This document shows, one piece after another, positions 1-64,000 of a stretch of 64,000 nt of DNA (positions within the stretch are counted from its first letter, which is position 1; every line of letters starts with the position of its first letter). Made by a program: the position numbers and the translations under genes. The notes beneath the pieces are model-generated. The model saw only the letters and a list, made by a program, of their open reading frames with translations. It did not search any database and was not told the DNA's origin. The DNA is from an uncultured Candidatus Babeliaceae bacterium (GTDB taxonomy: Bacteria > Babelota > Babeliae > Babelales > Babelaceae), in assembly GCA_963704655.1 (NCBI GenBank), contig OY969927.1:288001-352000 (forward strand), given 5' to 3'.

Positions 1-3000
1 ACTCACCGGTAACAGTTTAATAAATTACAGCTCTATTGGTGGTTGTGGTATTGGACAAGGCTTTGTCTGGGCGCCAACAAACCAAAACACTATTATCGGG
101 TTAGGTGCAGGTAATAATAATGTCCTTACAGGAACATCAAACATTGCTCTTGGCTACCAAGCACTTGCAAATGCAAAAACTATCAATAACTTTGACAATA
201 TCGCTATCGGTGCATTTACTCTTACAGCAACTGCTGTATTGGGTGACAATATAGCTATCGGTGTAAATGCGCTTTCAAGTGCAAACTATTCTGGTGGACA
301 GCAGATTGCTATAGGCACAAATAATTTAGCATTAAATACAACAGGGACAGCAAATATTGCAATAGGCTACGAGGTGCTTGATGCAAATACCGTTGGTTCA
401 TCAAATGTTGGTGTTGGATTTATGGCTTTAGGAAACAATGTGAGTGGTAATGACAACACAGCAATTGGAACGCTAGCACTGTATAATAATACGACAAGTC
501 AATTAACTGCCGTCGGTTCTGGAGCATTATATAACAATACTTCTGGTAGTGATAATGTTGCCATTGGATATTACGCATTAAATGCAAATACAACCGGCCA
601 AAACAATGTTGCAGTAGGCAATCAAGCATTATCGGTTAGCGTTAATAATAACGGCAATACCGCAGTTGGAACAAATGCGTTACAAAATAATATCACTTTG
701 CGCCTTACGGCAGTCGGTGCTAACGCATTGCAACATAATACTTCCGGCATTCAAAATGTCGCTGTTGGGTATAATGCATTAACTGCAAATACTACCGGCA
801 CGAATAACGTAGCAGTTGGTTACAACGCGCTTTCAGAAAATTTAATCGGAACGTCTAATATCGCCATTGGTTATCAAGCACTTACAGCAAATACCGCCGG
901 CGATGACAATATCGGTATCGGAACAAATGCATTAGTTAATGCACAAGGAAATAGAAATGTGGCAATGGGCTCCAGTGCATTCCAGACGATAAGTGGAAAT
1001 ACAGCATCAGATAACGTTGCTTTAGGTTATTATGCGCTTATTGTCTCGACTACAGGTCAAAGCGTTGCTATCGGCTCTGGTGCGTTAGCCGCTAATACTT
1101 TTGGAACTCAAAATACCGCTGTTGGCTATTATGCGCTTAATGCGAATATTACTGGAACATCGAATGTCGCGCTTGGCTATCAAGCTTTAGCAAATGCTAA
1201 AACCATAAACAACTTTGATAATATCGCAATTGGCGCATTTACACTTTCGGGAACCGCTGTTCTTGGTGATAATATTGCAATAGGTGTAAATGCGCTTTCA
1301 AATGCAAACTATAACCAAGCTAATCAGATAGCAATTGGTTCAGGCGCATTGCAAAATAACACATCTGGCTTTCAGAATACTGCTGTTGGGTATCAAGCAC
1401 TTAACTCATTAACCACATCAACAGCAAATACCGCAATTGGTTATCGTGCATTACAAAATGTTACTACACGTTTTGGTGGGCACGTTGCTCTGGGAAGTTT
1501 AACGTTAACGTCACTTTCTGGTGGCGGCCAAGGAAACACGGGTATTGGCTCAAGTGCGTTTACCCAATTAACCACGGGAAGCATCAATACGGCACTTGGT
1601 TTTAATGCGGGCAATAGCTTAACTACTGGAACAGGAAATATTATCATTGGCGCCTATACCGCGCAAGGTTTAACCTCTGGAGCAAATAACATTATCATCG
1701 GCCAGGGTGCAGTTGCAGCAGCATCAACAGCAAGTAATAATACTATTATCGGTACACTTGTAGGTGTTAATAGTACCTCAAGCAATAATGCTGTAGTTGG
1801 GTATCAAGCATTGCAAAATGATACCGCAGGAAACCAAGTTGCTGTTGGATACCAAGCAATGCAAAGTAATACAGCCGGTATACAGAATACTGCTGTTGGC
1901 TATTATGCGCTTAATGCGAATATTACTGGAACATCAAACGTTGCTATTGGATTTAGGGCACTTGCAAATGCTAATACCATAAATAACTTTGACAATATCG
2001 CAATTGGTGCATTTACTTTAACAAGCACAACAGCTTTTGGTGATAATGTTGCAATTGGCGCAAATGCATTAGCAAGCCCGAATTATTATAATCTTATAAG
2101 CGCGTTACCAACTTTTCCTGGAGGGCAGCAAGTTGCTATCGGCTCAGGCGCTTTACAGAATAACACGAATGGTTTTTTTAATACCGCAATAGGATATTAT
2201 GCATTACAAGCAAATACAGAGGGGTTTGGTAATACTGCCGTTGGTTACCAAGCATTAGTCAATACCAATGGTCCAGGCTTTCCAACTCTAACAGGTTGTT
2301 ATAATGTTGGTTTAGGGGCTGAAGTGCTTCAAAATAATACCACCGGCGCTAGAAATACCGCTGTTGGTTATAGTGCACTGCAACTTTCTACTACTGTATC
2401 TGACAATACCGCAGTTGGTTATGGTGCACTTTCTGGAACACTCACAGGAGGATCAACAGCAATTGGTAGCTCGGCACTAATTGAAAATACTACAGGTATT
2501 CAAAATACTGCAGTTGGATATTCTGCACTTAAGGGAAATACAATTGGCAATAGCAATACCGTATTAGGGTATAATGCAGGAGCTGATTTTACGACAGGTA
2601 GCCAAAATACCTTTATAGGTTACAGTGCCGGAATTGGAGGTGTAAACCCAACTGGATCATTTAATACAATAGTTGGTTCTTCTGCAGGTTCATTAATTAC
2701 AACAGGAACATGCAATATTATTATTGGACAAAGTAGCGCCGTAAATTTAAGCTCCGGCTCGAATAACGTGATAATTGGTCAAGGTGCAGCAAGCGCAATT
2801 ACTACAGGGACTAATAACATTATCATTGGAAACTTAGCACTTTCGGGAAATGTAGCAGCTAACATCAATAATAGTATCATTATCGGAGACCCAAACCCTG
2901 GTTTTGCTGCAGGATCTAGCGGTAATATTCAAATTGGTTTTTTTACGGGTAATCCCGCTGCAACAGTATGTTATATCGATGGCATCTATGGAAAAGCTGG

Positions 3001-3394: not shown

Positions 3395-3410
3395 AGATAA
3401 CCTTGTTATA

Positions 3411-3450
3411 AAAAAAAAGGGGCCGTGGACAAATCCACGGCCCCTCTTTT
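3411..3450. terminator. Bidirectional intrinsic terminator
   Basis: AGGGGCCGTGGA-caaa-TCCACGGCCCCT stem with A-run before and T-rich tail after, between convergent genes. Confidence 0.85.
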
Positions 3451-5052: not shown

Positions 5053-8000
5053 ATGAAGCAATATCTTTATGCAGCAGTCGCTGCAGCCATGTTATGTGTA
5101 TCTTTACAAGCAGAAATAATCTCATTGGAACAGGCTTATGTGGTTTTACAAGAGCTTGAAATGTTCGCACAAGGCGATCAACTTGATGCATCGAGTGATA
5201 CTATTATGTTCGCGCTTGATGAACTTATAGGTTATCTTGAAAGTGATACACAGCTTTCAGCAGATGTTCGTTTGGATATTTCAAAAAAGATTAATCTGCT
5301 TGTTAAAAAAATTAATCTGCAGACACGTGCGCCACGTTTAGATGCACCAGAAATACGTGAAACTACAATACTTAATGAAAATTATTACCCAACGCGCGAT
5401 CTCTATTTACGCAACTTACTCATTACCGGCTCGCTTATTTTAAATGGCCAGCAGATCGGCGGTGGCGGCAGTGTGCCAAGTAATCTCTATGTATTAAAAG
5501 CTGGCGACACCATGACGGGCGATTTAACCATGGCAGACCAGCATGGCATTGTATTAGAAGATGCTTCTGGCGCCAATGCAATTACCGTGCAAGCCCCAAA
5601 TACTACCGAAACTTATAGCTTTACGTTGCCAGATAGTGCTGGCGCTGCAAACCAAGCGCTTACTACAGACGGCTTTGGGAATTTAACGTGGGCATCTGCG
5701 ATTGCAACAACCTCTGGATTACAAAGTATTAATAATCTCACAACACCGCACCAATATCTTCTTACCAGCACGGGGACATCAACTGCATTTCAGTTTATCG
5801 AAACAAGTTCTTCGCATATTTTAAATATTCCATACGTTCAGGATTCTAGCCAAGGGTATGGTCTTCTAGATTCTGCTGATTACAATAATTTTGTTAATGC
5901 CGCAAACATGGTTAATGCTGCAACCAGCGACGACGTTTGTGGCACACTTGTAAAGCGTGATGCTAATTGTAATTTTTCAGCTAATATAATTACGGCAACC
6001 GTAACGTATGCTAACTTTGCCTTAACGTCTTCAAGTGCATTAACGGCAGTAACATCAACAACGGCACAATATGCACAGGTAGCAAACAGCGCCAACTATC
6101 TTTGTGGCGTACCTGCATGTAATTTAGTAAGTACCTATTCACAAGTTCTTTCCGGGACAAGTTTTGATATTCCATTAACACTCGTCTTGCGTGATAGCAC
6201 CGGCAGCTTTGCAGCAACAACTATTACACTCACCGGTGAATTGTTGTTACAAAATGCAAATGGTAATCTAACAGCGCTTCAAGCAGGTGCGCAAAGTTTT
6301 GCTCCAGTGTATACACTGATATTGCCAACAACAATTGGTGGTGATAATCAGGTATTAACAACAGACGGTAATAACCCAGCAAATCTTTTTTGGCAGCCTG
6401 TTTCTGCAATTGTAACTTCTACAATTGAACTTTATGGCGATGTTATGGGGTCATCAACTGCAAATATCGTTAATACTATATGCGGACAAAGTGCATGTTC
6501 AATTGTTACCACCGTTACCACTGCAACAAGTGACAATATCTGTGGTACTTTGGTAAAACGTGACAGTAACTGTAACTTTTCTGCTAATTTAATTACTGCA
6601 ACGGTGACAAATGCACTTCTTTCACAAACAGCATTATATGCAACTAATGCGCTACTTTCGGTAACTTCGCAATATGCGCAAAACGCAGGTTCGACTAACT
6701 TTGCTTACACGTCATCGCTTGCACAATATGCACAGGTAGCAAACAGTGCCAACTATCTTTGTGGTGTGCCTGCATGTAATTTAGTAAATACATATTCACA
6801 GGTACTTTCCGGGACAAGTTTTGATATTCCATTAACACTCGTCTTGCGTGATAGCACCGGCAGCTTTGCAGCAACAACTATTACACTCACCGGTGAATTG
6901 TTGTTACAAAATGCAAATGGTAATCTAACAGCGCTTGAAGCTGGTGCGCAAAGTTTTGCTCCAGTCTATACATTAATATTGCCAACAACAATTGGTGGTG
7001 ATAATCAGGTATTAACAACAGACGGTAATAACCCAGCAAATCTTTTTTGGCAGCCTGTTTCTGCAATTGTAACTTCTACAATTGAACTTTATGGCGATGT
7101 TATGGGGTCATCAACTGCAAATCATGTTGCATTTGTATGTGGCGTGCCTGCATGTGCACTCGCACAAACGTATTCAACGGTTCTTTCAGCAACTGCATGT
7201 GATATTCCACTCACGCTTATATTGCGTGACAGCACGGGCAGCTTTGCGGCAACAACTATTACACTCACGGGAAACAGTTTAATAAATTACAGCTCTGTCG
7301 GCGGATGCAACACTGGAGCTGGCTTTGTCTTTGCTCCGACAAAACAAAACACCATTATCGGGCTTGGTGCTGGTAATAATAACGTTCTCACTGGAACATC
7401 AAACATTGCAGTTGGATATCAGGCACTTGCAAAAAATACTTCTGGTTATAATAATGTGGCTCTTGGATTTAAGGCACTTGCAAATGGCAATACGATCAAT
7501 AACTTTGACAATATCGCCATTGGCGCCAATACGCTTTCTGGCGCATCTATTTTAGGTGATAACGTTGCAGTTGGAACAAATGCGCTTTCTGCGTCGGGTT
7601 ATACCGGCGGGCAGCAGATAGCAATTGGAACGGGTGCGTTACAAGCAAATACCACCGGTACTGGAAACATCGCAATTGGTTATGATGCATTACAAACAAA
7701 TACAAGTGGGGTAAATAATATAGCAATAGGCGCTTATGCACTGAGTAAGTTAAACTATAACCTACCGTTTCTTGGTATACCTAGCGGGGCAAATAATATT
7801 GCTATAGGCTCCAATGCATTAAGTAATATAGCTATAGCTGGTGAAAATGTCGCTATAGGCTCAAATACCTTACAGAATGGATCTTTTTCATACGGAAATG
7901 TTGCTATTGGTTATAACGCATTTGTTTTTGGCAATTCAGCATTCAATGTGGCTGTTGGTAATTCGAGTATGGTCAGCAATAATACGGGCGCAAGCAACAC

Positions 8001-26771: not shown

Positions 26772-26904
26772 AACACTCTCCTTAATGGCCATATAATATC
26801 CTATTTATTCACTCTATTTCTCTATTTTTTTCAGCTTAAACAAAGCGTAAACGCAGAGTCAACAATTTCAAATATATATTTATAGAAATTCCCCTAATAC
26901 CTTT

Positions 26905-51374: not shown

Positions 51375-51451
51375 GTTTGTTGCAAATTTTTTTTTCATGT
51401 GCAAGTATCTCTACTGATCTGACTAAAATTTTTAAATGGGATATTTGTAGT

Positions 51452-52670: not shown

Positions 52671-55400
52671 ATGAGTAATAGATTATTTATTTTTGCAGTA
52701 TTTTTGATCAGTTTATTTGTTCCGATATATGCGGAAATAACAAGTGTAGATGAAGCGCTTAAGGTTGTGGGTTTTCTTGATGCGCTTGAAGAAAATTATA
52801 AAGATGCATTTAAAGAAAAAAATATACGCTATGCATTGGAAGATTTATTAGCTTTTTATGAAAATTCAAATGAATTTACTCCAGAACAACGTGCAGGACT
52901 ATTTAATAAATTATATCGCTATTTCCAGCTGGTTGAAAAATTTGATGCTGAAAATGGCTCTGCAACAAAGTTTTTAAATTCAGATCAAAGTTTAGTAACC
53001 TACTGGACACAAATGGTAGCTGCTACTCATACTATACTTGATACGAATAATAGTTCTACGAGTAATGCATTAAATTTAATTGCGCCAATTTCTGGTGGAT
53101 TTAACTACACCTATACGTTGCAAATGCCGGTTAACCAGGGATCTTTTGGACAAGTTTTGTCAACTGATGGTAACAACCCTGCGCAACTTTCTTGGCTTAC
53201 TACTATAACTGCAGATGTAAGTCTTATTTACTCTGCAACAAGTTGTGATAATGTAAATACCATAGTATTACGTGATAATAATGGCAGTTTTGTAGCAACA
53301 AATATCGCGCTGATGGGCAATACAAATAACAGCTTAATAAATTATAGTACAACTTCATGTGGTCCGGGTACGTCGATGTTGAGTATTCCTGGAACACAAA
53401 ATATATTCTTAGGCACATCCGTTGGCAATTCAGCTGTATCGGGCCCAGGTAACGTAGCAGTTGGTAATACAACACTCAATGCTATAACTTCAGGCTCTGG
53501 TAACACTGCTATTGGTGTTAATGCATTAGCTGCAGTAGTGACAGGCTCTAATAATACTGCAGTTGGTTATGGCGCTAACGTAACTGGCGCAAATGCTCTG
53601 AATCAGACAGCAGTTGGTGCCGGCGCAGTTGCACCATTTAATAACAGCGTGGTATTAGGTAACGCTGCTGTAACCAATGTGGTCCCTATGGCAAGCGGTG
53701 TTACAAGTCTTGGTGGTGCAAGTAATATTTGGTCAACCCTCAATACCTATTCAACTAATTACTATGATAGATCAGGTGATGTAGTTACTATTGCAGCAAC
53801 GCCAGGTGGAACAGGAACTTATACAATGTATTGGCCAACTTCTGTAGGTCAAGCAGGGTATGTGCTTGAAGCAACCACCAGTAGTAGTCCGCAACAGCTT
53901 AATTGGATTCCTATTACCGCATTGCTGAGCGGTACCTATTGTGATTTCCCAAGCACCTACGTGCAGCGCGATCCAAATGGTAAATTTGCAGCAACAACGA
54001 TTACGTTAACGGGTGTATCGTTACTTAACTACAGCACTCTTGGTGGTTGTGACCTCGGTAACCCATTCTTGAGCGTTCCAGGAACAAACAACTTGTTCTT
54101 AGGCACTTCTGCTGGTAAACAAACAGTATCAGGCAGTGCCAACGTTGCTGTGGGTAACCAAGCATTAACAAGCATTAGTACTGGTACGTCTAATACTGCA
54201 ATTGGTTATAATGCTCTTGCTGCAGCAGCTGCCGGCTATAATAATGCTGCATTGGGTTATTATGCATTAGCTATTGCTACCGGAAATAATAACGTTGCAG
54301 TAGGTTATAATGCCGGTTCAGCAAGTACCGGATCTAATAATATCTATGTTGGTACAGGAGTAACCGGAAATTCTGGTGATGCCAGTGTTATCAGTATCGG
54401 TATTCAAAATGCTGGAACAAGTGGCACCTATATGGGTGGTATTTATAATACTACGCCTACAGGATTAAACTCTCTTGTAGGTATTACCAGCAGTGGTCAA
54501 CTTGGTGTTGCAACGTCAGCAACTATTACCACACTTACGGTATCAGGAAGTCTTACTGTTGATAATCTTAATGGTGCAGTTATTGCAACTAACGGGTTAT
54601 TAACAGCGACTATTGGTATTGACGGCACACGCCTTGCATCATTTATATTAACCGATACACCTGCAGTAAGCTTCTTCCAACCGGTTGAGCCATCACGTGA
54701 ATCATACTTCTTTGATGACTTTATGGCATTTAATTCTACTGCTGGCGACTTGTTCTATGGTGATACACAATGGGTAATTGGTAATAATACTGCCGGACGT
54801 GTTACGGCAATTGCACCGCTTGCATCTAATGGCGCAATTGGTGTGACTCGTTTAACATCTGGCGCTGCTGTAAATAACAGTAATTATATTACCAAACAGC
54901 TTACGGGCACAACGTCATTAAGCTTGTCGCTAGGATATGGCCCATGCTTGAATGAATGGCGTGTTTCTGTTCCAGCAACTTCAAGCGGAACAAATAGTTT
55001 CTATACTCGTGTTGGCTTTGGAGATAGTCCTGCTGCTACAGCAGTAAACCCAACAGGTGCGCCAAGTAATGGTATTTACTTCCAATGCCTTGATAGCATC
55101 AACAGTGGTTCATGGACGGTTAATACCGCAAGTAATGGAAGCAGAACATCGGCAAATACAGCAGTTGCTCCTACTCCAGGCGTATTCCAACGATTGAGTT
55201 TTCAAGTTAATGGAAATGCATCAAGTGTTACGTTCTACATAAATGATGTTTCGGTAGGAACTATTACGACAACGATACCAACAATAGCCAATGGTAACTA
55301 TTGTTCACCATATGCGTCTGTGGTGCGAAATGCTGGTACTGGAGGATCTCTTGATCTTGATTATTGGTATTTCCATTATACCTTTAATTCACGACGTTAA
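52671..55400 (+). CDS. Secreted 909-aa fibre-family protein with lectin/ConA-like C-terminal domain
   Basis: Signal peptide, helical N-domain, head-like repeats, C-terminal domain paralogous to the previous gene. Confidence 0.8.
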   Translation: MSNRLFIFAVFLISLFVPIYAEITSVDEALKVVGFLDALEENYKDAFKEKNIRYALEDLLAFYENSNEFTPEQRAGLFNKLYRYFQLVEKFDAENGSATKFLNSDQSLVTYWTQMVAATHTILDTNNSSTSNALNLIAPISGGFNYTYTLQMPVNQGSFGQVLSTDGNNPAQLSWLTTITADVSLIYSATSCDNVNTIVLRDNNGSFVATNIALMGNTNNSLINYSTTSCGPGTSMLSIPGTQNIFLGTSVGNSAVSGPGNVAVGNTTLNAITSGSGNTAIGVNALAAVVTGSNNTAVGYGANVTGANALNQTAVGAGAVAPFNNSVVLGNAAVTNVVPMASGVTSLGGASNIWSTLNTYSTNYYDRSGDVVTIAATPGGTGTYTMYWPTSVGQAGYVLEATTSSSPQQLNWIPITALLSGTYCDFPSTYVQRDPNGKFAATTITLTGVSLLNYSTLGGCDLGNPFLSVPGTNNLFLGTSAGKQTVSGSANVAVGNQALTSISTGTSNTAIGYNALAAAAAGYNNAALGYYALAIATGNNNVAVGYNAGSASTGSNNIYVGTGVTGNSGDASVISIGIQNAGTSGTYMGGIYNTTPTGLNSLVGITSSGQLGVATSATITTLTVSGSLTVDNLNGAVIATNGLLTATIGIDGTRLASFILTDTPAVSFFQPVEPSRESYFFDDFMAFNSTAGDLFYGDTQWVIGNNTAGRVTAIAPLASNGAIGVTRLTSGAAVNNSNYITKQLTGTTSLSLSLGYGPCLNEWRVSVPATSSGTNSFYTRVGFGDSPAATAVNPTGAPSNGIYFQCLDSINSGSWTVNTASNGSRTSANTAVAPTPGVFQRLSFQVNGNASSVTFYINDVSVGTITTTIPTIANGNYCSPYASVVRNAGTGGSLDLDYWYFHYTFNSRR

Positions 55401-55427: not shown

Positions 55428-58400
55428 ATGAAAATAAACATACTAGTTTTCACATTAACGTTAGTAACATTTTTGCCATTTTATGCTGCCATAAACAGTT
55501 TAAAAGAAGCACGAATTGTTTCGCGGTATCTTGGTGTTATTAAACAACATGACACTATCCTTTTTTCAGACCCTTTGGTGATTCAGACGGTAAACGATCT
55601 TATTGATTTTTGTGAAAATAATAATCAATTAAGTGAACAAGAAAAATTGGAGTTTGTAACGAAATTAGAAGAGTTTATTTTGTTGGTCCCCGCTGATAGC
55701 AGTGGGGATCAACAGATCGGAGATCAATTGGTGGGGAAAGCAAACCCGCTGTCTGTTAATGGGCAGACATTGGTTGCTTATTGGAGTCAAATTTTTAGCT
55801 CGACAGAATTTTTATTTGATAGCACAGGGAACAACACCGTAGCATTATCTGCTCCATTGGTGTTAAATGATAGTTATACTTTACAATTTCCTGTATCAGA
55901 AGGTTCTGCTTATCAAGTGCTGGGAACATTGGGTGGCAATCCCGCACAACTTGCTTGGCTTACTACTGTTACTAATACGAGTCAATTAAATTTACTGAAT
56001 ACCGCAACAAATTGTGATGTTGCAAATACATTAGTATTGCGTGATACAACTGGCAGCTTTGCAGCAACAACAATCACGTTAACCGGCAATAGTTTAATTA
56101 ATTTCAGTACTGTTGGTGGCTGCGATATCGGACAAGGCTTTGTCTTTGCGCCAACACATCAAAATACCATTATCGGCCTAAATGCAGGAAATAATAACAC
56201 CCTTACCGGCACAAGTAATGTTGCATTAGGTTATAATGCGCTAGCAGCGAACATTATTGGACATGACAATATCGCATTAGGTACCAATGCGCTTGCAAAT
56301 AACACCACCAACCTATCTACTGCTGTAGGCTCAGGAACTTTACAAAGTAATGTTTCTGGTAGCCAAAATACTGCTGTTGGATATTATGCATTGAATAAAG
56401 TTGTTGCCAATGGTAACAATACCGCAGTTGGATATTACGCCCTTTTGAATAATACTAATAACCAGCTTACCGCTGTTGGTGCTGGTGCATTACAAACGAA
56501 TGTCAACGGCTCAGCAAATGTTGCAGTTGGCTATAACGCATTGAATCAAAATAACGGAGCAAACAATACGGGTCTTGGTTTTCAGGCAGCGCAGGGAACA
56601 ACTGCTGCAGGTAATATTGTTGCAGTAGGTGCAAATGCTTTTGCAGCAGGCGTTGCTACTGGTGCACAAACGGTTGCAGTTGGCTCAGCTGCGATGCAGA
56701 ATGCAAAACCAGCTTTGGGTGCAGATATTGCCATAGGTTATCAAGCATTGCAGAATGATAATCAAGGGCTCAATGTTGCAGTTGGTACATCGAGCATGAC
56801 CACTAATAATACCGGCGCTTATAACACTGCTGTTGGAATATCAACATTGCAAAACAATGGTAGTGGGATTCAAAATACTGCTATCGGATATTATGCACTT
56901 CAAGCAAATACAACGGGAACATCAAACATTGCATTAGGCTACCAAGCACTTGCAAATGCAAACACCATAAATAACTTTGATAATATTGCAATTGGAGCAT
57001 TTACGCTTACTGGAACTGCGGTATTGGGTGATAATATTGCGGTGGGGGTCAATGCGCTTTCTGCGCCTGGCTATAACCAAGGTCAGCAGATAGCAATTGG
57101 AACAAATGCATTACAACTTAATACAACTGGAACGGCAAATATTGCAATCGGTTACGAAGTGCTTGATGCAAACACGGCTGGTTCATCAAACGTTGGGCTT
57201 GGGTATCAAGCTTTAGGTACTAATGTTAGTGGTAATGATAATACAGCTGTTGGAACATTAGCTCTTTTCAATAACACAACAAATCAGATCACCGCGGTTG
57301 GTTCTGGTGCACTACAAAATAATACTACTGGTATTCAAAATACTGCAATTGGTTATAAAGCGCTTAATGCTAATACCACAGGGACATCAAATGTTGCTAT
57401 CGGATATAAAGCGTTACAGACAAATACTATTGGTGATGATAATATTGCTATAGGTTATAACGCATTAAACACCTTCAATTCTGCTATTGGAAAAAATATA
57501 GCTATTGGTTCGCTAGCATTGCAAAGTTTAAATACTACCAATGCGCAGAGTGTTGCCATTGGTTATCAGTCAGGGCTAATTTCTACAGGTGCTAGCAATA
57601 CTATTGTTGGTTCAAATGCGGCGACTGGTTTAACAACAGGCGGAAGTAGTGTTGTTATTGGTGCAACTGCCGGCGCAGGCACAACAGTAAGTAATAACGT
57701 TGTTGTTGGCGCAGGCGCAGGAAACCAGACATTAACGGGTGCAACTAACGTTGTTGTAGGGCAGGGTTCCGGAACTGGATTAACTTCTGGCGCAAGTAAT
57801 ACCATTTTAGGACAAGCTGCCGGAACCGGTTTAACGTCAGGTGGAAGCAGTGTTGTTATAGGCGCAACTGCAGGTGCAGGTACAACAGTAAGTAATAACG
57901 TTGTTGTTGGCGCAGGCGCAGGAAACCAGACATTAACGGGTGCAACTAACGTTGTTGTAGGGCAGGGTTCCGGAACTGGATTAACTTCTGGCGCAAGTAA
58001 TACCATTTTAGGACAAGCTGCCGGAACCGGTTTAACGTCAGGTGGAAGCAGTGTTGTTATAGGCGCAACTGCAGGTGCAGGTACAACAGTAAGTAATAAC
58101 GTGGTTGTTGGTGCTGGTGCGGGAAACCAGACATTAACCGGCGCTAGCAATGTTATTGTTGGTCAGGGAACAGCTACGGGATTAACTTCAGGTGGAAGCA
58201 ATATTATTATTGGTCAAGGAAACACGGGCGGTACATTAACTACAGGAGCTAATAATATTATTATTAGTACCGGCAATAATGCTACGTACCCAATCGCTAA
58301 TGGTTCGAATGGTATCATTATAGGCTTTGGAACAACTTCTACAACAGCCTGTTGGATCGATGGGATTCTGCCTTTTGCCGCTGGCGCAAATACTGTACGT

Positions 58401-61037
58401 ATAACTGCTGCTGGCAGATTGGGTACAGCTGCTTCGTCTGCACGTTATAAAACTAATATAAAACCGATGACAAGTGAGTCTTCAAATATATATCAGTTAA
58501 GTCCTGTTTCATTTACGTTTATTCCAAGTATTGATCCAACACAAACAACCTACTATGGTTTAATAGCCGAAAATACTGTTGGTCTTTACCCAAGTTTAGT
58601 TGTTACAGATACAGCAGGTCTTCCTTGGGCGATTAACTATGATTTATTGTCACCGATAGTTTTAAATGAAACACTTAAGCTTAACGCCTTTGTGCCGATA
58701 ACATTAAATTATACAAGTACGCAAAATACGGTTATTGGTAAAAATGCGTTGCAGGCAATTACTACTGGTTCGGGTAACACTGTTTTTGGTTATCAAGCGG
58801 GGAATTCGATCACAACAGGATACGGTAACACACTTCTTGGCATGGGTGCAGATGTAGCTTCTGGTAACCTGGTAAATGCGACAGCAATTGGTGCTGGTGC
58901 AAAGGCCACTAATAATAATACTATTGTCTTAGGAAATTCAAATGTTGTTGCTGTAGTACCCGGTTCAACTAATGCTACGCTTGGTGCGCCTGGGCAGATG
59001 TGGTCATCTATTATGACAACACAATTGACTTCTGCTGGCAGTTTAACATCGCCTACAATTACGTTAACAAGTAATCCATTAATGTATTATTATGATGGCA
59101 TAACCACGTGGACTATGTTGTCAGCGCCTGGAACACAAAATACTTTCTTAGGGCAAAGTGCGGGTAATTTATCGGTGACAGGAGCACGTAATGCTGCCTT
59201 TGGTTATCAGGCTGCAAAATCAAACATAACATCAAGTGATAATGTGGCTGTTGGGGTGAATGCATTGGCAACATATAATGGTGCAGGTGGTCAACATGTT
59301 GCAATAGGATCAGGTTCTATGCAAAATGCGACTCCTACCGGACAGTCTGATATTGCAATCGGATATAATACGTTGCAAAAAGATAATGGTCAAGGATCTA
59401 ATATTGCCATTGGTAACTCAGCAATGCAGAATGCTACGCCTATAAATGGTCAAGATATTGCAATTGGGTTACTTACATTACCAAGTGATACCATAGGATT
59501 TAATATCGCAATCGGTAACAGTAGTATGACTAATAATACAACTGGTGTTAATAACGTTGCTCTGGGAATTTCTTCATTACAAACTAATACTTCTGGATCG
59601 TATAACGTCGCTATCGGTAATAGCGCATTATTTGGAAACGCTGCCAATGCTGCAAAAAATGTAAGTAATAACGTTGCTGTTGGGTATCAAAGTTTGTATA
59701 ACAATCGCGCAAATAATTTAACGGCAATTGGTTATTATGCGCTTGGCTCAAATACAACCGGTATTCAAAATACGGCACTTGGTTATTACGCACTTGGCCT
59801 GAATACAACCGGCACATCAAATATCGCTATCGGTTATCAAGCTTTAGCAAATGCAAACACTATCAATAATTTTGATAATATCGCCATTGGTATAAATACG
59901 CTTTCTGGAGCAGGTGTCTTAGGTGATAATATCGCCATTGGTGCAAATGCGCTTTCTGCATCTGGGTATAGTCAAGGCCAGCAGATTGCTGTTGGCACAA
60001 ACGCATTGCAAGTTAATACAACAGGGACAGCAAATATAGCAATTGGTTATGGGGTGCTTGATGCAAACACGGTTGGGTCGTCGAACGTGGGGCTTGGGTA
60101 CCAAGCATTAACTACTAATGTTAGCGGTAATGACAATACTGCAGTTGGAACGAATGCTTTACAGTTTACGACAACATGGCGTTTAACTGCCGTTGGTTCT
60201 GGCGCATTACAATATAATACGACTGGTTTTCAAAATACCGCCGTTGGCTATCAGGCGCTTAATGCAAATACAACCGGCACATCGAATGTTGCTATTGGTT
60301 ACCAAGCTCTTTTAACAAATACAGGAAGCAGTAGCAATATCGCCATTGGTGCCAATACATTAACAAGATTTAGCAGTGCTTCTAATTTTGGTGGCAATAA
60401 TACAGCAGTGGGTATCAATGCGTTAGTTTCACTCATTACGGGAACTGGCAATACAGTTTTGGGCTACAACGCTGGATCAAACTTAACAACTGGTAGTGGA
60501 AATATTTATGTCGGTGCATTTGTTGCCGCAGCAACAACTAACGAGAGCAACACAATACGTATTGGAAGTGTTGGCGGTGCAGGAACAGCAGCTTGCTATA
60601 TTCAAGGAATTAATGGTAAAACAGTTCTTCCTGTAGCTGGTGCGGGCACTGTTAGTGTAAGTACGACTGGACAGCTTGGTACTACCGTTTCATCACGACG
60701 TTTTAAGAAAAATATTCAAGATATGGGTCTAATCACTGAAGATTTGTATAAATTACGTCCTGTAACATTTAATTATAAAGTTGATGAGGCTGAAGAGCAT
60801 TTAGAATATGGTCTAATCGCTGAGGAAGTTGATGAGGTTTATCCAGGGATTATTATTAGGGATGATTATGGAGCGCCATTTTCGGTTCAATACCAATTTC
60901 TTCCTATGATGATGCTTAATGAATTGCAAAAAGATCGTGCACGTATTGTGGTATTAGAAGATAAAATTGTAAGATTGGAACAACAGATTAGCAAGCTTTT
61001 GAATAATAGTGAACGACTTTCAGTAAAGGATGTGTGA
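55428..61037 (+). CDS. Secreted 1869-aa fibre protein with two S74-like chaperone domains
   Basis: SSARYKTNI at 58434 (internal) and SSRRFKKNI at 60690 (terminal). Confidence 0.85.
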   Translation: MKINILVFTLTLVTFLPFYAAINSLKEARIVSRYLGVIKQHDTILFSDPLVIQTVNDLIDFCENNNQLSEQEKLEFVTKLEEFILLVPADSSGDQQIGDQLVGKANPLSVNGQTLVAYWSQIFSSTEFLFDSTGNNTVALSAPLVLNDSYTLQFPVSEGSAYQVLGTLGGNPAQLAWLTTVTNTSQLNLLNTATNCDVANTLVLRDTTGSFAATTITLTGNSLINFSTVGGCDIGQGFVFAPTHQNTIIGLNAGNNNTLTGTSNVALGYNALAANIIGHDNIALGTNALANNTTNLSTAVGSGTLQSNVSGSQNTAVGYYALNKVVANGNNTAVGYYALLNNTNNQLTAVGAGALQTNVNGSANVAVGYNALNQNNGANNTGLGFQAAQGTTAAGNIVAVGANAFAAGVATGAQTVAVGSAAMQNAKPALGADIAIGYQALQNDNQGLNVAVGTSSMTTNNTGAYNTAVGISTLQNNGSGIQNTAIGYYALQANTTGTSNIALGYQALANANTINNFDNIAIGAFTLTGTAVLGDNIAVGVNALSAPGYNQGQQIAIGTNALQLNTTGTANIAIGYEVLDANTAGSSNVGLGYQALGTNVSGNDNTAVGTLALFNNTTNQITAVGSGALQNNTTGIQNTAIGYKALNANTTGTSNVAIGYKALQTNTIGDDNIAIGYNALNTFNSAIGKNIAIGSLALQSLNTTNAQSVAIGYQSGLISTGASNTIVGSNAATGLTTGGSSVVIGATAGAGTTVSNNVVVGAGAGNQTLTGATNVVVGQGSGTGLTSGASNTILGQAAGTGLTSGGSSVVIGATAGAGTTVSNNVVVGAGAGNQTLTGATNVVVGQGSGTGLTSGASNTILGQAAGTGLTSGGSSVVIGATAGAGTTVSNNVVVGAGAGNQTLTGASNVIVGQGTATGLTSGGSNIIIGQGNTGGTLTTGANNIIISTGNNATYPIANGSNGIIIGFGTTSTTACWIDGILPFAAGANTVRITAAGRLGTAASSARYKTNIKPMTSESSNIYQLSPVSFTFIPSIDPTQTTYYGLIAENTVGLYPSLVVTDTAGLPWAINYDLLSPIVLNETLKLNAFVPITLNYTSTQNTVIGKNALQAITTGSGNTVFGYQAGNSITTGYGNTLLGMGADVASGNLVNATAIGAGAKATNNNTIVLGNSNVVAVVPGSTNATLGAPGQMWSSIMTTQLTSAGSLTSPTITLTSNPLMYYYDGITTWTMLSAPGTQNTFLGQSAGNLSVTGARNAAFGYQAAKSNITSSDNVAVGVNALATYNGAGGQHVAIGSGSMQNATPTGQSDIAIGYNTLQKDNGQGSNIAIGNSAMQNATPINGQDIAIGLLTLPSDTIGFNIAIGNSSMTNNTTGVNNVALGISSLQTNTSGSYNVAIGNSALFGNAANAAKNVSNNVAVGYQSLYNNRANNLTAIGYYALGSNTTGIQNTALGYYALGLNTTGTSNIAIGYQALANANTINNFDNIAIGINTLSGAGVLGDNIAIGANALSASGYSQGQQIAVGTNALQVNTTGTANIAIGYGVLDANTVGSSNVGLGYQALTTNVSGNDNTAVGTNALQFTTTWRLTAVGSGALQYNTTGFQNTAVGYQALNANTTGTSNVAIGYQALLTNTGSSSNIAIGANTLTRFSSASNFGGNNTAVGINALVSLITGTGNTVLGYNAGSNLTTGSGNIYVGAFVAAATTNESNTIRIGSVGGAGTAACYIQGINGKTVLPVAGAGTVSVSTTGQLGTTVSSRRFKKNIQDMGLITEDLYKLRPVTFNYKVDEAEEHLEYGLIAEEVDEVYPGIIIRDDYGAPFSVQYQFLPMMMLNELQKDRARIVVLEDKIVRLEQQISKLLNNSERLSVKDV
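57620..58200 (+). repeat. Tandem repeat, 201-bp (67-aa) period, ~3 copies
   Basis: GGAAACCAGACATTAAC at 57720, 57921 and 58122. Confidence 0.9.
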
Positions 61038-64000
61038 TGAAAAGAAAGATGTTATTTTTTTATACTATATTTTTGACGTTAAGTGCCTTAACAACGCTTA
61101 ACGCAGTTCAAGATAAAGTTGTTTTGGTTGATAACAATACATTATCTCAGCTAGATATGCATAGATGGTATAATGAAAATATACATCAGCTAGAATCTGT
61201 TCCTGCACAAGCGTATGTTCATCATAAGATTTTTAAACTGACACATGATAAAGATTCTGAATACATTTTTATATACGGAAATAAAAAATTCGTGTCACGA
61301 CAAGAAGCACAATTAGATGCGGGTGATTGTTGTTTAGGGCAACTGCCTGGCGCAACGCTGATCGCAGATTTTCTTGTGCATAATCAAGATCTTTTTGTCC
61401 GTAATGCGCAAAAAGTTTCACACCGTGCCGGTCAATTTATTTGGGATCGACTTACTCCTGGATTACCTTTATTGTTAGATTCAAATTTAGATGTTGTTAC
61501 ACAAAACGTTGATATAGCAAGTCAAACAAGCGGTGCTGTGGCAATAGCATTAGGTGGCACCAATTCAACTTCGCCATTACAGAACAATTGTCTTATGGAA
61601 TCAGTTGGTGGACAAATAGTTGAAGCTCCGGCGTTACAAAATGGACAGATTTTTATTGGTGCAACAGGCATGTCGCCAAGTCCTGCAACTATTTCTGGAA
61701 CAGCTTCTCAAATTAATATAACAAATGGCCCTGGATCTATAACACTTTCAACACCACAAAATATCGATTTACTGTCAACGCCGACATTTGTGGGTATTCA
61801 GTTTCAACCTAGTGGTTCATCTAATTATGTTACTCTTCAGGCACCTGCAACAGTAAGTTCAACGTATTCAGTAAGCCTACCAGGCTCTGCGCCAACTGCA
61901 GGTCAAGTATTACAGGCAACATCTACATCAACAACTCAGTGGGGGAATGTGAGTGACGCGCTTACTTTATATGTTGCTGTCAATGGAAATGATAGCACGG
62001 GAAATGGCTCATTAACAGCACCTTTTGCAAGCTTAAAGCGGGCACTAGCCGTCGCTAATGCTATTGCATCAGAATATACACCAGTTAAAATCTCAGTGGG
62101 GCCTGGTATATTTGTGGAAGACACTTCTTCTGGCCCATTAATAATTAATCCTGTAAGTGGTAGTGGTTATATCAACATTGTGGGAACATCAAGTCAAACA
62201 ACTCTCTTTACTTCTTATACCCCAACACAAACGTTTATCTATATGCCAGCAAATGGCCGGCTTTCTGATTTGGCAATTTTTGGTATATATGAAGCGCCCG
62301 CAGTGTGCGCAGATGGCACTGGTAATAATTCTGCCTTTATTAACGCTGTTGCAGTTGGTTGCCAGCAGGGTTTTCTTTTTCAAGGTGGTATAACAACTAA
62401 CTACTATTTACAAGGAGTTGCTACCGAAAGTTGCGGTGTTGGTGTGCTAGTTGATGATGCTCGCGTGTTGATGTATAACTCAAGTTTTGATGGGGCACTT
62501 GAAACAACAATTATTCCTGCAAATACGGGGGTTATTGTAACAGGTCCGGCAGGGCGTATGGTTGCAGAGTCATGCGCATTTTTATATTGCGGCCTTTGTG
62601 GATTGGTAGAAAATCAAGGGAACGCTACATTTATAGGCGGCTCGTTTATTAGTTCAACAAGTGGTGTTCAGGCAGCAAGTCAGTCAACGTGTATTGTTAA
62701 TGGTTCAACATTTTATAGTAATACCGCAACGAATATGATCGCTCGAGATTTGGGGACAACTTTGCAGTCAACTGCATGTAATGTTGATGGTAATAGTTTA
62801 AATAATCTTCCGCAAGGAACGGGTCTTTTGGTTACCACCAGTGCTCAGGCTAATATTGCAGTTGCGTCGTTAACTAATTTAATAAATGGTATTATCATTG
62901 GTCAAGATGGTGATGATAGCACAACGCAGGTTCTTTCAGTTGGAGTAACTATCGATAATTGTGCAGGATCACAAATTATTCAAAATGGGCTTGCGCAATT
63001 AACGTATGTTGATGGTGCTCTTAATAGGAACTTTATAACTATTTCAAATCCTACAAATGTTACCTTTAATACCACGGATGCTTCAAGCGGGCAGGCAACG
63101 ATTATTGGTCAGCATAGTGATGTTGATCAAGATTTGATTCTTGTTGATACTGGGGTTGCGCAGATGCCAGGGTTAGTTTATCAATCAAATTATATGGATT
63201 GTAAGGGTATAATTTATCAAAATACTAATCCTGCTTTTTCAACCATGCTTGGGGTGCAGGGACAAAACTCTGGCGCAACACTTTCTGCAGTTACTGCTTC
63301 AAATGCACAACCTGCAAAAGTCATGTTATTTTCAAACTCCGGTGCTTTTGGCGGAATGAGTAATATGCGCGGTTGGTTGTTGAATAAAAACGCAACAAAC
63401 GCTCAATTGGCAGGTGAATTTTATAATAATGATCTTGATGGTAAACCTGCTATAGATCAATATACAAGTTTTCAATTTGACGGTTTTAATAATATTTTGC
63501 AATTCCCGGCAGTAACCACAACAAATTTACCAACCAATACCGTGGCACAATTACAATGGGCGGGAGATACGAATCTTTACCGTGCACAAGCAGGTGTGTT
63601 ACAGACAGATAATAACTTTGCCATTCAAGGTCTTGCCACCGCAAATAGTGCATTATATGTAGATGGTAATAAGCAGGTTGCTGCAAGTGTTACCTCTTCA
63701 AGTGATTTAGCACAACTTGCAGGAATAACCGGTGGTCCTATTCAGCCGCAACTTAATAATAAAGTTTCAAAGGCTGGCGATGTTATGACCGGCGTGTTAA
63801 CTATTCCAGATGGCACCGTTGCAAGACCGGCACTTAGTTTTAATGGTTTTCCTAATACTGGATTAGCGATTATAGGTAACGTTTTTACCTTAATGACTTC
63901 AGGCAGTTCACGCTTAACAGTAGATGCTAACGGTGTTGTGGGTATTAATAGCTCGAATGTTTCAACGGTGTTGAACGTAGGCGGTGATGTATCTGTAGTG
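61037..64000 (+). CDS. 3'-partial secreted tail-fibre/tailspike-like protein with beta-helix-like region (not in the ORF track)
   Basis: ATG overlaps the previous stop (TGATG); MKRKMLFFYTIFLTLSALTTLNA leader; LYVAVNGNDSTGNGSLTAPFASLKRAL; KVSKAGDVMTGVLTIPDG; frame runs to the window end. Confidence 0.85.
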   Translation, partial: MKRKMLFFYTIFLTLSALTTLNAVQDKVVLVDNNTLSQLDMHRWYNENIHQLESVPAQAYVHHKIFKLTHDKDSEYIFIYGNKKFVSRQEAQLDAGDCCLGQLPGATLIADFLVHNQDLFVRNAQKVSHRAGQFIWDRLTPGLPLLLDSNLDVVTQNVDIASQTSGAVAIALGGTNSTSPLQNNCLMESVGGQIVEAPALQNGQIFIGATGMSPSPATISGTASQINITNGPGSITLSTPQNIDLLSTPTFVGIQFQPSGSSNYVTLQAPATVSSTYSVSLPGSAPTAGQVLQATSTSTTQWGNVSDALTLYVAVNGNDSTGNGSLTAPFASLKRALAVANAIASEYTPVKISVGPGIFVEDTSSGPLIINPVSGSGYINIVGTSSQTTLFTSYTPTQTFIYMPANGRLSDLAIFGIYEAPAVCADGTGNNSAFINAVAVGCQQGFLFQGGITTNYYLQGVATESCGVGVLVDDARVLMYNSSFDGALETTIIPANTGVIVTGPAGRMVAESCAFLYCGLCGLVENQGNATFIGGSFISSTSGVQAASQSTCIVNGSTFYSNTATNMIARDLGTTLQSTACNVDGNSLNNLPQGTGLLVTTSAQANIAVASLTNLINGIIIGQDGDDSTTQVLSVGVTIDNCAGSQIIQNGLAQLTYVDGALNRNFITISNPTNVTFNTTDASSGQATIIGQHSDVDQDLILVDTGVAQMPGLVYQSNYMDCKGIIYQNTNPAFSTMLGVQGQNSGATLSAVTASNAQPAKVMLFSNSGAFGGMSNMRGWLLNKNATNAQLAGEFYNNDLDGKPAIDQYTSFQFDGFNNILQFPAVTTTNLPTNTVAQLQWAGDTNLYRAQAGVLQTDNNFAIQGLATANSALYVDGNKQVAASVTSSSDLAQLAGITGGPIQPQLNNKVSKAGDVMTGVLTIPDGTVARPALSFNGFPNTGLAIIGNVFTLMTSGSSRLTVDANGVVGINSSNVSTVLNVGGDVSVV

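What the first reader, a model, noticed from the sequence alone, without database searches (positions are those of the whole stretch)
1..64000. Chromosomal family of signal-peptide-bearing, phage-tail-fibre-like mosaic proteins without an autotransporter anchor
Seen: seven related fibre genes cover about 36 kb. All six visible N-termini look like Sec signal peptides. Four genes end in an S74-like domain, two end in a lectin-like tip, one is cut by the window edge. No visible C-terminus is a YadA beta-barrel, and no capsid, terminase or baseplate genes are present. Known: S74 chaperones fold trimeric phage tail fibres, and Bdellovibrio uses chimeric MAT fibres, some with S74, for prey recognition. 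Inference: this is a domesticated, expanded fibre arsenal for host recognition in a likely protist-infecting lineage, with an unknown export and anchoring route.
Basis: partly seen in the sequence, partly recalled or inferred. Interest (0 to 1): 0.85.

Follow-up and report, generated by a model that had tools for sequence, protein, structure and literature searches.

The report
Phage-like fibre gene family in Dependentiae
A tiny-genome bacterium from a phylum that parasitises protists spends about 6% of its chromosome on twelve giant, secreted proteins resembling phage tail fibres, which probably serve as surface fibres for gripping host cells.

Summary
The seven window genes (36.1 kb) belong to a 12-gene family of 77,163 nt, 5.94% of a 1.298 Mb single-contig genome. 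Nine members end in Peptidase_S74 domains that score above Pfam's cut-off. The Ser-x4-Lys dyad is intact in 12 of 12 domains. Three genes carry a second, internal S74.

Three members end in a concanavalin-A-like lectin tip of the SO2946-like type. This rests on an AF2 model (pLDDT 85), fold matches, and 20 of 30 sampled profile relatives carrying PF22237.

All 12 N-termini look like Sec signals, but only by a crude heuristic. No YadA anchor or head, sheath, gpD hub, HK97 capsid, portal or reverse transcriptase was found, and the flanking genes are housekeeping.

The lineage is Dependentiae, family Babeliaceae. S74 fibre genes occur in 55 of 201 sampled genomes of the phylum, with up to 17 matches per genome.

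The closest analogue is the Bdellovibrio MAT fibre family. The N-terminal module differs from it and was found full length only in this genus among the genomes searched.

Blocks of 92-99% DNA identity between and within paralogues show ongoing recombination.

Surface display, trimer state and host binding are inferred, not shown, and the export route is unknown. Verdict: a new variant of a known kind, of moderately high interest.

The parts
2..3394 (+). Gene A: the last 1130 codons of a 2641-2669 aa fibre whose start lies upstream of the window. Beta-roll shaft with S74 at 3053-3211.
5053..10941 (+). Gene B, 1962 aa. Signal peptide; genus-specific N-module at 5053-5442 (three helices, RAPRxDAP, RDLYLRNLLITGSL); collar repeats; beta-roll shaft; S74 at 10579-10737; coiled-coil tail.
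26905..41244 (-). Gene C, 4779 aa, the largest member. Short N-terminus, 12 RD..G.F collar motifs, 28 beta-roll motifs, internal tandem repeats. S74 at 27112-27276.
51452..52639 (+). Gene D0, 395 aa from the ATG (the ORF opens at a TTG at 51377). Signal peptide, one collar unit, lectin tip at 51788-52636.
52671..55400 (+). Gene D, 909 aa. Signal peptide, helical N-region, short shaft, concanavalin-A-like (SO2946-like) tip at 54528-55397.
55428..61037 (+). Gene E, 1869 aa. Signal peptide, helical N-region and shaft. Internal S74 at 58434-58601 (Ser1003), about 750 aa of further shaft, then terminal S74 at 60690-60845 (Ser1755).
61034..64000 (+). Gene F: the first 989 codons of an 1822 aa protein. 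Its start overlaps the stop of E by 4 nt. Signal peptide and an N-terminal region of its own. Outside the window it ends in the same lectin tip as D and D0.

Best explanation
These genes encode a lineage-specific set of long surface fibres, probably trimeric, in an obligately host-dependent Dependentiae (Babeliaceae) bacterium. They are built from phage tail-fibre modules and work like the MAT (mosaic adhesive trimeric) fibres of Bdellovibrio.

Proposed course:
1. The Sec system exports each protein by an N-terminal signal peptide (inferred from sequence).
2. In the periplasm the C-terminal S74 intramolecular chaperone nucleates trimer folding of the beta-roll/beta-helix shaft. It then cuts itself off at the conserved Ser of the Ser-x4-Lys dyad and uncovers the distal end. 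The domain and dyad are shown; the cleavage is inferred from the family.
3. Three members carry a concanavalin-A-like lectin tip that folds on its own and most likely binds a glycan. The fold is shown; the ligand is inferred.
4. The conserved N-terminal modules hold the fibre on the cell, and the variable C-terminal end points outward (inferred by analogy with MAT).
5. The fibres bind surface glycans or proteins of the protist host and so start attachment and uptake (inferred).
6. Recombination and tandem duplication among paralogues keep reshuffling shaft and tip cassettes. The DNA blocks are shown; selection for host range is inferred.

How the fibres cross the outer membrane is unknown. The two GspD-type secretins are the only candidates I can name.
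For: S74:
- It scores above Pfam's cut-off in A, B, C and E.
- The genome holds 12 matches in 9 ORFs.
- Ser61 and Lys66 of alignment A5 are invariant in 12 of 12 domains.
- The A5 profile hits phage S16 long tail fibre 6f45 (2e-8), T5 L-shaped fibre 8hqz (2e-5) and MyRF 7dc3 (0.009).

Shaft: phrog_4636 (tail spike) matches with E down to 1e-228, alongside phrog_6002 and phrog_23837.

Tip:
- The tip profile finds 5328 representatives at E<=1e-3. In the 150 listed, the match nearly always ends at or near the C-terminus; P0010 and P0089 are exceptions.
- 20 of 30 sampled relatives carry PF22237 SO2946-like_C, and 4 of 30 carry Laminin_G_3.
- The AF2 model has pLDDT 85.1 and pTM 0.83.
- Foldseek matches SO2946 (2a5z), legume lectins, the Emp46p carbohydrate-recognition domain, GH16 glucanases and the SraP lectin module.
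- In the viral library it matches uncultured Caudovirales proteins with SO2946-like C-termini (E 2e-18 to 1.6e-17; TM-score by target length up to 0.87).

Signal peptides: 12 of 12 pass the heuristic.

Chromosomal, not phage.

Host-dependent lineage:
- Record titles of relatives read Candidatus Babeliaceae or TM6.
- The genome is 1.3 Mb and has ATP/ADP translocase (TLC) hits.
- All known isolates of the phylum infect phagotrophic protists (PMC12172432).

Trait of the lineage:
- S74 is found in 5 of 5 congeners and in 55 of 201 sampled genomes of the phylum.
- Another family of the phylum has a 92 kb array of 15 such ORFs, all with signal-like N-termini.

Fast turnover: SerRS is 75-87% identical in 4 of 5 congeners and 62% in the fifth, a copy with internal stops in a 66%-complete genome. 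D has no full-length counterpart; its best match is 55% over residues 502-909.

Mosaic DNA blocks.

MAT parallel: 21 proteins, 13 with S74 and 8 without, all with a signal peptide and a conserved N-domain (PMC10769870).
Against: - No experiment or expression data bear on the claim.
- Signal peptides rest on a permissive heuristic that also passes 51% of the genome's ORFs.
- The trimer state was not tested, because the complex predictor was unavailable.
- The N-module model is poor (pLDDT 46) and has no recognisable relatives, so its anchoring role is a guess.
- The N-termini are not uniform: there are four classes among the 12 genes.
- No dedicated outer-membrane exporter was identified.
- Lectin-fold tips and beta-helices also occur in glycan-degrading enzymes. 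GH16 glucanases rank among the top fold hits.
- The lectin tip is rare in the phylum, in 4 of 201 genomes.
- 146 of the 201 sampled genomes show no S74, so such fibres cannot be a universal entry device.
Confidence: 0.6

Rival explanations
1. The proteins are released tailspike-like enzymes or lectins, not cell-bound adhesins. They would act on host or prey glycans (glycocalyx, cyst wall, food bacteria) or work inside the host cell during replication.
For: - Phage tailspike families match strongly.
- GH16 glucanases and a sialidase are among the fold matches of the tip.
- The N-terminal part of F gives weak leads (scores 0.83-0.89, below the 0.9 level) to pectin-lyase-like / GH28-related beta-helix clusters.
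- No anchor was identified.
- S74 was first described as the chaperone of an enzyme, the endosialidase (Pfam's name for the family).
Against: - No glycosidase or lyase Pfam family matches any of the seven proteins, even at E<=5 for four of them.
- Conserved N-terminal modules paired with variable C-termini are the pattern expected of a retained fibre.
- Lengths up to 4779 aa suit a reach function better than catalysis.
Confidence: 0.17
2. The proteins form a structural coat or mediate contact between the bacteria themselves (aggregation, envelope integrity on an outer membrane without LPS). Host recognition would not be their job.
For: - The genome has two Omp85 genes but no LpxC, so the surface chemistry is unusual and could need a protein coat.
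- The family takes 5.94% of the genome.
Against: - A coat protein would be expected to be conserved. These genes lack orthologues even within the genus, while SerRS is 75-87% identical in 4 of 5 congeners.
- 146 of 201 sampled genomes of the phylum show no S74.
- Tip variety (S74-exposed ends, lectin tip, and a C1q domain recorded for one relative) fits recognition of variable ligands.
Confidence: 0.1
3. The genes are fibres of a prophage, tailocin, gene transfer agent or contractile injection system encoded elsewhere in the genome.
For: All shaft, collar and S74 modules have phage relatives.
Against: - Phage_sheath_1, Phage_GPD, Phage_capsid and Phage_portal find nothing in a 96%-complete single-contig genome.
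- 59 flanking ORFs around the off-window copies, and the window's own neighbours, hold no capsid, portal, terminase or tail gene. The single 'head maturation protease' hit is an S49/SppA-like membrane protease by my reading.
- Signal peptides do not fit assembly in the cytoplasm.
- GC3 matches the genome.
- Only four structural families were searched genome-wide, so divergent particles could have been missed.
Confidence: 0.03
4. They are trimeric autotransporter adhesins whose anchor was missed.
For: Signal peptide, long repetitive Ala/Gly/Thr/Asn-rich shaft, and repeats of the N-x-x-A-I-G type that recall YadA-head repeats. The resemblance is recalled, not tested beyond Pfam.
Against: - YadA_anchor has 0 matches in the genome.
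- No YadA_head/Hep_Hag match at E<=5.
- The C-termini are S74 or lectin domains, not barrels.
Confidence: 0.01

Closest known systems
Bdellovibrio bacteriovorus MAT (mosaic adhesive trimeric) fibres (Caulton et al. 2024, PMC10769870; passages and Discussion read)
   Same: - A multi-paralogue chromosomal family: 21 there, 12 here.
- A signal peptide on every member.
- A split into S74-ended and non-S74-ended members: 13 and 8 there, 9 and 3 here.
- The same catalytic Ser-x4-Lys spacing.
- Phage-like beta-helical shafts and swappable tips that include lectin-type folds.
- A conserved N-end with a variable C-end, in an organism that must recognise another cell.
   Different: - The N-terminal module is different. 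Fibre-like ORFs from Bdellovibrionales and Peredibacter share only the collar motif with B (46% over 68 aa), not the N-terminus.
- The N-termini here fall into four classes.
- Sizes reach 4779 aa, against about 1000 aa there.
- Three genes have an internal S74.
- The tip is SO2946-like rather than TNF-like, C-type lectin or a new beta-sandwich.
- The presumed target is a eukaryote.
- I did not compare directly with HD100 proteins, and that paper's supplementary tables of homologues in other bacteria could not be opened.
Phage tail fibres and tailspikes with a C-terminal S74 intramolecular chaperone (K1F endosialidase, T5 pb1, S16 gp37)
   Same: The S74 domain with its dyad, a coiled-coil tail after S74, collar and beta-roll shaft modules, and PHROG tail spike and long-tail-fibre matches.
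   Different: Signal peptides, no virion-attachment N-domain, no phage genes nearby or detected in the genome, and resident base composition.
SO2946-like C-terminal domain (PF22237; PDB 2a5z), within the concanavalin-A-like lectin/glucanase superfamily
   Same: Fold match. 20 of 30 sampled profile relatives carry PF22237. In nearly all of the 150 listed relatives the match ends at or near the C-terminus.
   Different: D, D0 and F do not themselves reach any Pfam model, so they form a divergent branch. The ligand of this domain family is not known to me.
Trimeric autotransporter adhesins (YadA family)
   Same: Sec signal and a long repetitive fibre, presumed trimeric, used for adhesion.
   Different: No C-terminal anchor barrel and no head or stalk Pfam families. 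Polarity is presumably reversed, with the conserved end at the N-terminus.
MyRF (eukaryotic myelin regulatory factor)
   Same: An S74-type domain that is internal, with further sequence downstream. The profile hits 7dc3 at E 0.009. That the domain is internal in MyRF is recalled, not checked here.
   Different: In MyRF, cleavage frees a transcription factor from a membrane anchor. Here the internal S74 sits between two fibre segments.

Membership tests
Peptidase_S74 (intramolecular chaperone / autoprocessing domain) | Match to the family model above the curated cut-off | tested here: met
   A, B, C and E score 35.8-72.6 bits against a 22-bit cut-off. The genome has 12 matches above the cut-off. 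D0, D and F have none.
Peptidase_S74 (intramolecular chaperone / autoprocessing domain) | Catalytic Ser and Lys five residues apart | tested here: met
   Ser61 and Lys66 are invariant in 12 of 12 aligned domains. The motif reads S[S/T/D]xxxK.
Peptidase_S74 (intramolecular chaperone / autoprocessing domain) | Trimer-dependent self-cleavage | not testable with these tools
   Needs expression of a C-terminal fragment and a Ser-to-Ala control.
MAT fibres as defined for Bdellovibrio | Signal peptide on every member | tested here: inconclusive
   12 of 12 pass a crude heuristic that also passes 624 of 1216 ORFs. SignalP was not available.
MAT fibres as defined for Bdellovibrio | Conserved beta-rich N-domain of about 130 aa directly after the signal peptide | tested here: not met
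   - Here the signal peptide is followed by three predicted helices or directly by a collar unit.
- BLASTP against two fibre-like ORFs from Bdellovibrio-like organisms shows no N-terminal similarity.
- Not compared with HD100 proteins themselves.
MAT fibres as defined for Bdellovibrio | S74-ended and non-S74-ended members with varied tips on a common shaft type | tested here: met
   9 S74-ended members and 3 with a lectin tip, with shared shaft modules.
MAT fibres as defined for Bdellovibrio | Trimeric fibre exposed on the cell surface | not testable with these tools
   The complex predictor was not available. No localisation data exist.
Trimeric autotransporter adhesins | C-terminal YadA-type anchor barrel | tested here: not met
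   PF03895 has 0 matches in the genome and none in the proteins.
Trimeric autotransporter adhesins | YadA head or stalk repeat families | tested here: not met
   No such Pfam match at E<=5 in A, D or F, nor at E<=0.01 in the seven proteins.
Prophage, tailocin or contractile-injection fibre | Neighbouring or genomic capsid, portal, tube, sheath or baseplate genes | tested here: not met
   Searches cover the neighbours. Searches cover the genome, for four families only.
Concanavalin-A-like lectin / SO2946-like_C tip | Direct match to PF22237 or PF13385 | tested here: not met
   No Pfam match for D, D0 or F.
Concanavalin-A-like lectin / SO2946-like_C tip | Homology through intermediates, plus the jelly-roll sandwich fold | tested here: met
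   Profile relatives: 20 of 30 with PF22237. Model pLDDT 85.1. Foldseek matches 2a5z and lectins at E 3e-8 to 1e-6.
Diversity-generating retroelement target | Reverse transcriptase in the genome | tested here: not met
   PF00078 has 0 matches.

The most novel reading that the evidence does not exclude
Dependentiae as a phylum use phage-derived, S74-chaperoned trimeric fibres as their main device for recognising protist hosts and triggering uptake. The fibres would be displayed on an LPS-less outer membrane through lineage-specific N-terminal modules and diversified by cassette recombination. The genes with an internal S74 would be stacked precursors that self-process into an anchored fibre plus a second, released fibre piece.
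Probability: 0.3. Interest if true: 0.8.

Novelty: new variant of a known kind. Interest (0 to 1): 0.62.

Why it matters
How Dependentiae (TM6, Babelota) find and enter their protist hosts is not known. The two genome papers I searched do not mention fibres, adhesins or attachment. In the held library only one paper contains both 'Dependentiae' and 'tail fib...', and the search listing suggests that is incidental.

A genome of 1.3 Mb that keeps 77 kb of fibre genes, and a phylum in which 55 of 201 sampled genomes carry such genes, points to a strongly selected function. It also gives concrete candidates for host-range determinants.

It would extend the MAT principle from a bacterial predator to parasites of eukaryotes. 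It also offers natural cases of internal S74 domains in bacterial fibres.

Tried and rejected
- Complex prediction, intended for a trimer of the lectin tip, was not available. The trimer state is untested.
- Supplementary files of PMC10769870 could not be opened. Its Supplementary Tables 3 and 4 list MAT-like proteins in other bacteria and may already include Dependentiae.
- The AF2 model of the N-module was too poor for fold search (pLDDT 46).
- ESM Atlas gave nothing above the noise level for the N-module (best 0.80) and only leads below 0.9 for the N-terminal part of F.
- NCBIfam has no family for any of the seven proteins.
- The tip profile has no hit in PDB sequences at E<=1.
- Sequencing runs: no RNA holder is listed. 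Three metagenome runs hold only short low-depth contigs on D0-E. I draw nothing on expression or habitat from this.
- A diversity-generating retroelement as the source of tip variation is rejected: no reverse transcriptase.
- Two-partner secretion was considered: no haemagglutination-activity (TPS) domain appeared in the Pfam scans. The TpsB-type exporter family was not searched separately.
- A lipoprotein anchor was considered: I saw no lipobox-like Cys context in the printed N-termini. This is a reading by eye.
Full report
**What is in the window.** The ORF list shows seven large genes: A 2-3394 (cut at its 5' end), B 5053-10941, C 26905-41244 on the minus strand, D0 51377-52639 (likely ATG at 51452), D 52671-55400, E 55428-61037, and F 61034-64000 (cut at its 3' end). 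Together they cover 36,117 nt, 56% of the window. Pfam finds Peptidase_S74 above its cut-off at the C-terminus of A, B, C and E, twice in E, and nothing in D or F. Of the 22 other ORFs of 150 aa or more, 16 carry ordinary cellular domains: seryl-tRNA synthetase, HemN, SecD, ATP-dependent ligase, OMP decarboxylase, GidB, GatA-type amidase, MreC and RecJ, among others. None of seven neighbours checked against PHROGs matches a phage structural family. The observation therefore stands.

**The family in the whole genome.**
- The window lies in a single 1,298,077 bp contig of 38% GC, rated 96% complete.
- A six-frame S74 scan gives 12 matches in 9 open frames.
- BLASTP of the fibre proteins against all 1423 ORFs of 100 aa or more hits 12 genes, plus one antisense ORF inside a fibre gene.
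- Five fibre genes lie outside the window, at 152, 261, 266, 271 and 811 kb. The 5' part of A and the 3' part of F also lie outside.
- The 12 genes sum to 77,163 nt, 5.94% of the genome.
- They form two same-strand runs. One holds the genes at 261, 266 and 271 kb and then A, with gaps of 68, 116 and 80 nt. The other holds D0, D, E and F, with gaps of 31, 27 and -4 nt. B and C stand nearby, and two members are solitary.
- Once complete, F ends in the same tip as D and D0. Its window part has no BLAST similarity to the other six.

**Anatomy.**
- Composition is Ala, Gly, Thr, Asn and Ser rich.
- From the N-terminus there is first a hydrophobic leader with a small-residue site, such as ...SLQA|EI or ...PIYA|EI.
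- Next comes one of four N-terminal classes:
  - Class I: three predicted helices, then RAPRxDAP and RDLYLRNLLITGSL, then a GDTMTGDL collar. It occurs in B and the genes at 261, 266, 271 and 811 kb, and partly in the gene at 152 kb.
  - Class II: helices only (D, E).
  - Class III: directly a collar unit, SYTLxLPxxxGxxGQVLG...W followed by LVLRDxxGxFxA (A, C, D0).
  - Class IV: an N-terminal region of F's own.
- Collar units recur up to 12 times per protein. N-x-x-A-I-G type beta-roll motifs recur up to 28 times.
- The shafts match phrog_4636 (tail spike) with E down to 1e-228, and two 'virion structural protein' families.

**The S74 ends.**
- In an alignment of all 12 domains, the Ser and the Lys five residues later are invariant.
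- The alignment profile finds phage S16 long tail fibre (6f45, 2e-8), the T5 L-shaped fibre (8hqz, 2e-5) and MyRF (7dc3, 0.009) among solved structures.
- Terminal copies are followed by a 30-40 residue helical tail.
- Three genes carry an extra, internal S74 with the dyad intact but without that tail. They are E (Ser1003, then about 750 aa of shaft and a terminal S74 at Ser1755) and the genes at 261 and 266 kb, whose two S74 domains lie 183 aa apart.
- One ORF of another genus also holds two S74 matches (G158, 1998 aa).
- Whether the internal copies cut is unknown. They may be scars of cassette addition, extra folding nuclei, or sites that split one precursor into two pieces.

**The lectin tip.**
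- D0, D and F share about 290 C-terminal residues at 44-54% identity.
- A profile of them finds 5328 cluster representatives at E<=1e-3 and 2757 at E<=1e-10 among 1.84 billion. In the 150 listed, the match nearly always ends at or near the C-terminus, in proteins of 153-1945 aa; P0010 and P0089 are exceptions.
- Of 30 that I sampled, 20 carry PF22237 (SO2946-like_C) and 4 carry Laminin_G_3.
- The window proteins themselves reach no Pfam model and no PDB sequence.
- An AF2 model built from 55 sequences has pLDDT 85.1 and pTM 0.83 and is all-beta.
- Foldseek places it with SO2946 (2a5z), Emp46p/47p carbohydrate-recognition domains, legume lectins, GH16 glucanases and the SraP lectin module.
- In the viral library it matches uncultured Caudovirales proteins with SO2946-like C-termini at E about 1e-18 and 23-25% identity.

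**What it is not.**
- Not a trimeric autotransporter: the YadA anchor is not found in the genome, and there are no YadA head or stalk families even at E<=5.
- Not part of a detectable phage particle or injection system: no sheath, gpD hub, HK97 capsid or portal.
- The 59 ORFs flanking the off-window copies hold no capsid, portal, terminase or tail family. Their one 'head maturation protease' hit is a membrane protein that I read as an SppA-type S49 peptidase.
- Fibre GC3 (0.24-0.29) lies within about one to one and a half standard deviations of the genome's genes (0.307 +/- 0.045), so the genes are long resident.
- There is no reverse transcriptase, so no retroelement-driven tip variation.

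**Lineage and distribution.**
- The class I N-module, searched in one genome per species, recovers near-full-length matches (query residues 1-300 or 57-300) only in one 'Candidatus Babeliaceae bacterium' MAG (3 of its 4 loci).
- Further N-terminal matches, starting at query residue 1 or 5 and reaching residue 178-221, come from that MAG's fourth locus and from two untitled MAGs. A TM6 record gives a partial match.
- NCBI names the relatives 'tail fiber domain-containing protein'.
- The genome has ATP/ADP translocase hits, two secretins, two Omp85 proteins and no LpxC.
- All known isolates of this phylum infect phagotrophic protists (PMC12172432, passages read).
- S74 occurs in 5 of 5 congeners, 15 of 24 genomes of the family and 2 of 16 genomes of other families in a first sample.
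- In an even sample of the phylum, S74 occurs in 55 of 201 genomes and 33 of 120 genera, with up to 17 matches per genome and ORFs up to 7403 aa. The same search matches only 2 of 14 control genomes.
- The collar part of the N-module is found in 42 of 201 genomes. The part from residue 1 is found only in this genus.
- The lectin tip is found in 4 of 201 genomes.
- A genome of another family carries a 91.6 kb run of 15 same-strand ORFs of 507-5696 aa. All have signal-like N-termini of a different, locally conserved type.
- Such fibre gene sets are therefore a recurrent, patchy trait of the phylum, with lineage-specific N-ends.

**Turnover.**
- Between paralogues that are otherwise 35-50% identical in protein there are long DNA blocks of high identity. 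A and C share 92% over 1412 nt. B and C share 92% over 1002 nt. B and the gene at 271 kb share 93.6% over the first 513 nt.
- Within genes there are near-identical repeats: 98.7% over 1141 nt in C, and tandem arrays of 465, 135 and 201 nt period.
- SerRS is 75-87% identical in 4 of 5 congeners. The fifth copy is 62% identical, has internal stops and lies in a 66%-complete genome.
- D has no full-length counterpart in any congener. Its best match is 55% over residues 502-909.
- In one congener, fibre-like ORFs lie on the same contig as serS.

**Most likely mechanism.**
- Shown: the domain content, the catalytic dyad, the lectin fold, the chromosomal setting, the lineage and the mosaic DNA.
- Inferred: Sec export, S74-driven trimer folding in the periplasm with self-cleavage, retention on the cell through the N-end, outward-pointing variable tips, and binding to host surface molecules that starts attachment and uptake.
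- Unknown: the outer-membrane passage and the anchor partner. The same two points are also open for the Bdellovibrio MAT fibres (PMC10769870, Discussion read).
- I put the surface-adhesin reading at 0.6. The main rival, at 0.17, is released glycan-active proteins.

**Comparison with what is known.**
- The closest system is the MAT family: 21 proteins, 13 with S74 (SDxxxK) and 8 without, all with a signal peptide and a conserved beta-rich N-domain of about 130 aa, surface exposed and mosaic.
- The present family works like it on every sequence-level criterion except the N-domain, which is different. I therefore do not file it as a member in the strict sense.
- It also differs in size, in the internal S74 domains and in the presumed eukaryotic target.

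**Literature.**
- The phrase 'mosaic adhesive trimeric' occurs in only two Bdellovibrio papers in the held library.
- 'Dependentiae' together with 'tail fib...' occurs in one virome preprint, judged incidental from the search listing only.
- The Chromulinavorax paper and the TM6 comparative genomics paper contain none of the words fiber, fibre, attachment or autotransporter. 'Adhes' appears once, about type IV pili.
- The supplementary tables of the MAT paper, which list homologues in other bacteria, could not be read.

**Limits.** There is no SignalP run, no multimer prediction, no expression data and no localisation data. Only four phage-particle families were searched genome-wide. The phylum counts come from samples of genomes, many of them incomplete.

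Noticed in passing
genome-wide (G000), outside the finding: Two Omp85-family genes (35.7 and 696.6 kb) and two secretins (1068-1075 kb) are present, but LpxC gives no match in a 96%-complete genome. This suggests an outer membrane without classical LPS.
   Followed up: partly
window 21588-23357 (+): A three-domain ATP-dependent DNA ligase (DNA_ligase_A_N, _M and _C), the type typical of archaea and eukaryotes, sits among bacterial housekeeping genes.
   Followed up: no
window 25317-26792 (-): A TPR protein with a signal-like N-terminus and a poly-Ser tract lies 112 nt downstream of giant gene C on the same strand. It could be a periplasmic helper of fibre assembly.
   Followed up: no
window 36820-37959, 35555-35892 and 28002-28508 (gene C); 57627-58138 (gene E): In-frame tandem repeats of 465, 135, 264 and 201 nt, with up to 98% matches. 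These are recent internal duplications that lengthen the shafts.
   Followed up: partly
window 58434-58601; G000:C1:265313-266002 and 270295-271005: Internal S74 domains with an intact Ser/Lys dyad but no coiled-coil tail. Two S74 matches in one ORF are also seen in G158 (C1:566357-567886).
   Followed up: partly
L086-L090 (G130:C1:1131749-1223323): In another family of the phylum, 15 consecutive minus-strand fibre-like ORFs (507-5696 aa) fill 91.6 kb of a 1.48 Mb genome. They have a different conserved leader (MKQLF...A|GLYNVF).
   Followed up: partly
P0161 and P0163 (relatives of B's N-region): One 3216 aa relative is recorded with a C1q domain, and another with Phage_fiber_2. This hints at further tip types on the same kind of fibre.
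   Followed up: no
model of window 54528-55397 against the viral structure library: Besides tailed-phage proteins, the lectin tip matches proteins of the giant viruses Marseillevirus LCMAC103 and Fadolivirus at fold level (E about 1e-10 to 1e-9).
   Followed up: no
G000:C1:575536-578513: Adjacent ATP/ADP translocase (TLC) genes, the hallmark of energy parasitism.
   Followed up: no
window 57566-58150 (-) and G000:C1:261970-262743 (-): Long antisense ORFs lie inside fibre genes. The one at 261970-262743 even gives a BLAST hit to a fibre protein. They are most likely artefacts of the repetitive, biased composition.
   Followed up: no
window 61034-62900 (N-terminal part of F): Weak Atlas leads (0.83-0.89) to phage hypothetical proteins and pectin-lyase-like/GH28-related beta-helix clusters, plus a phrog_4577 'tail protein' match (3e-6). 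This may be a tailspike-type domain.
   Followed up: partly
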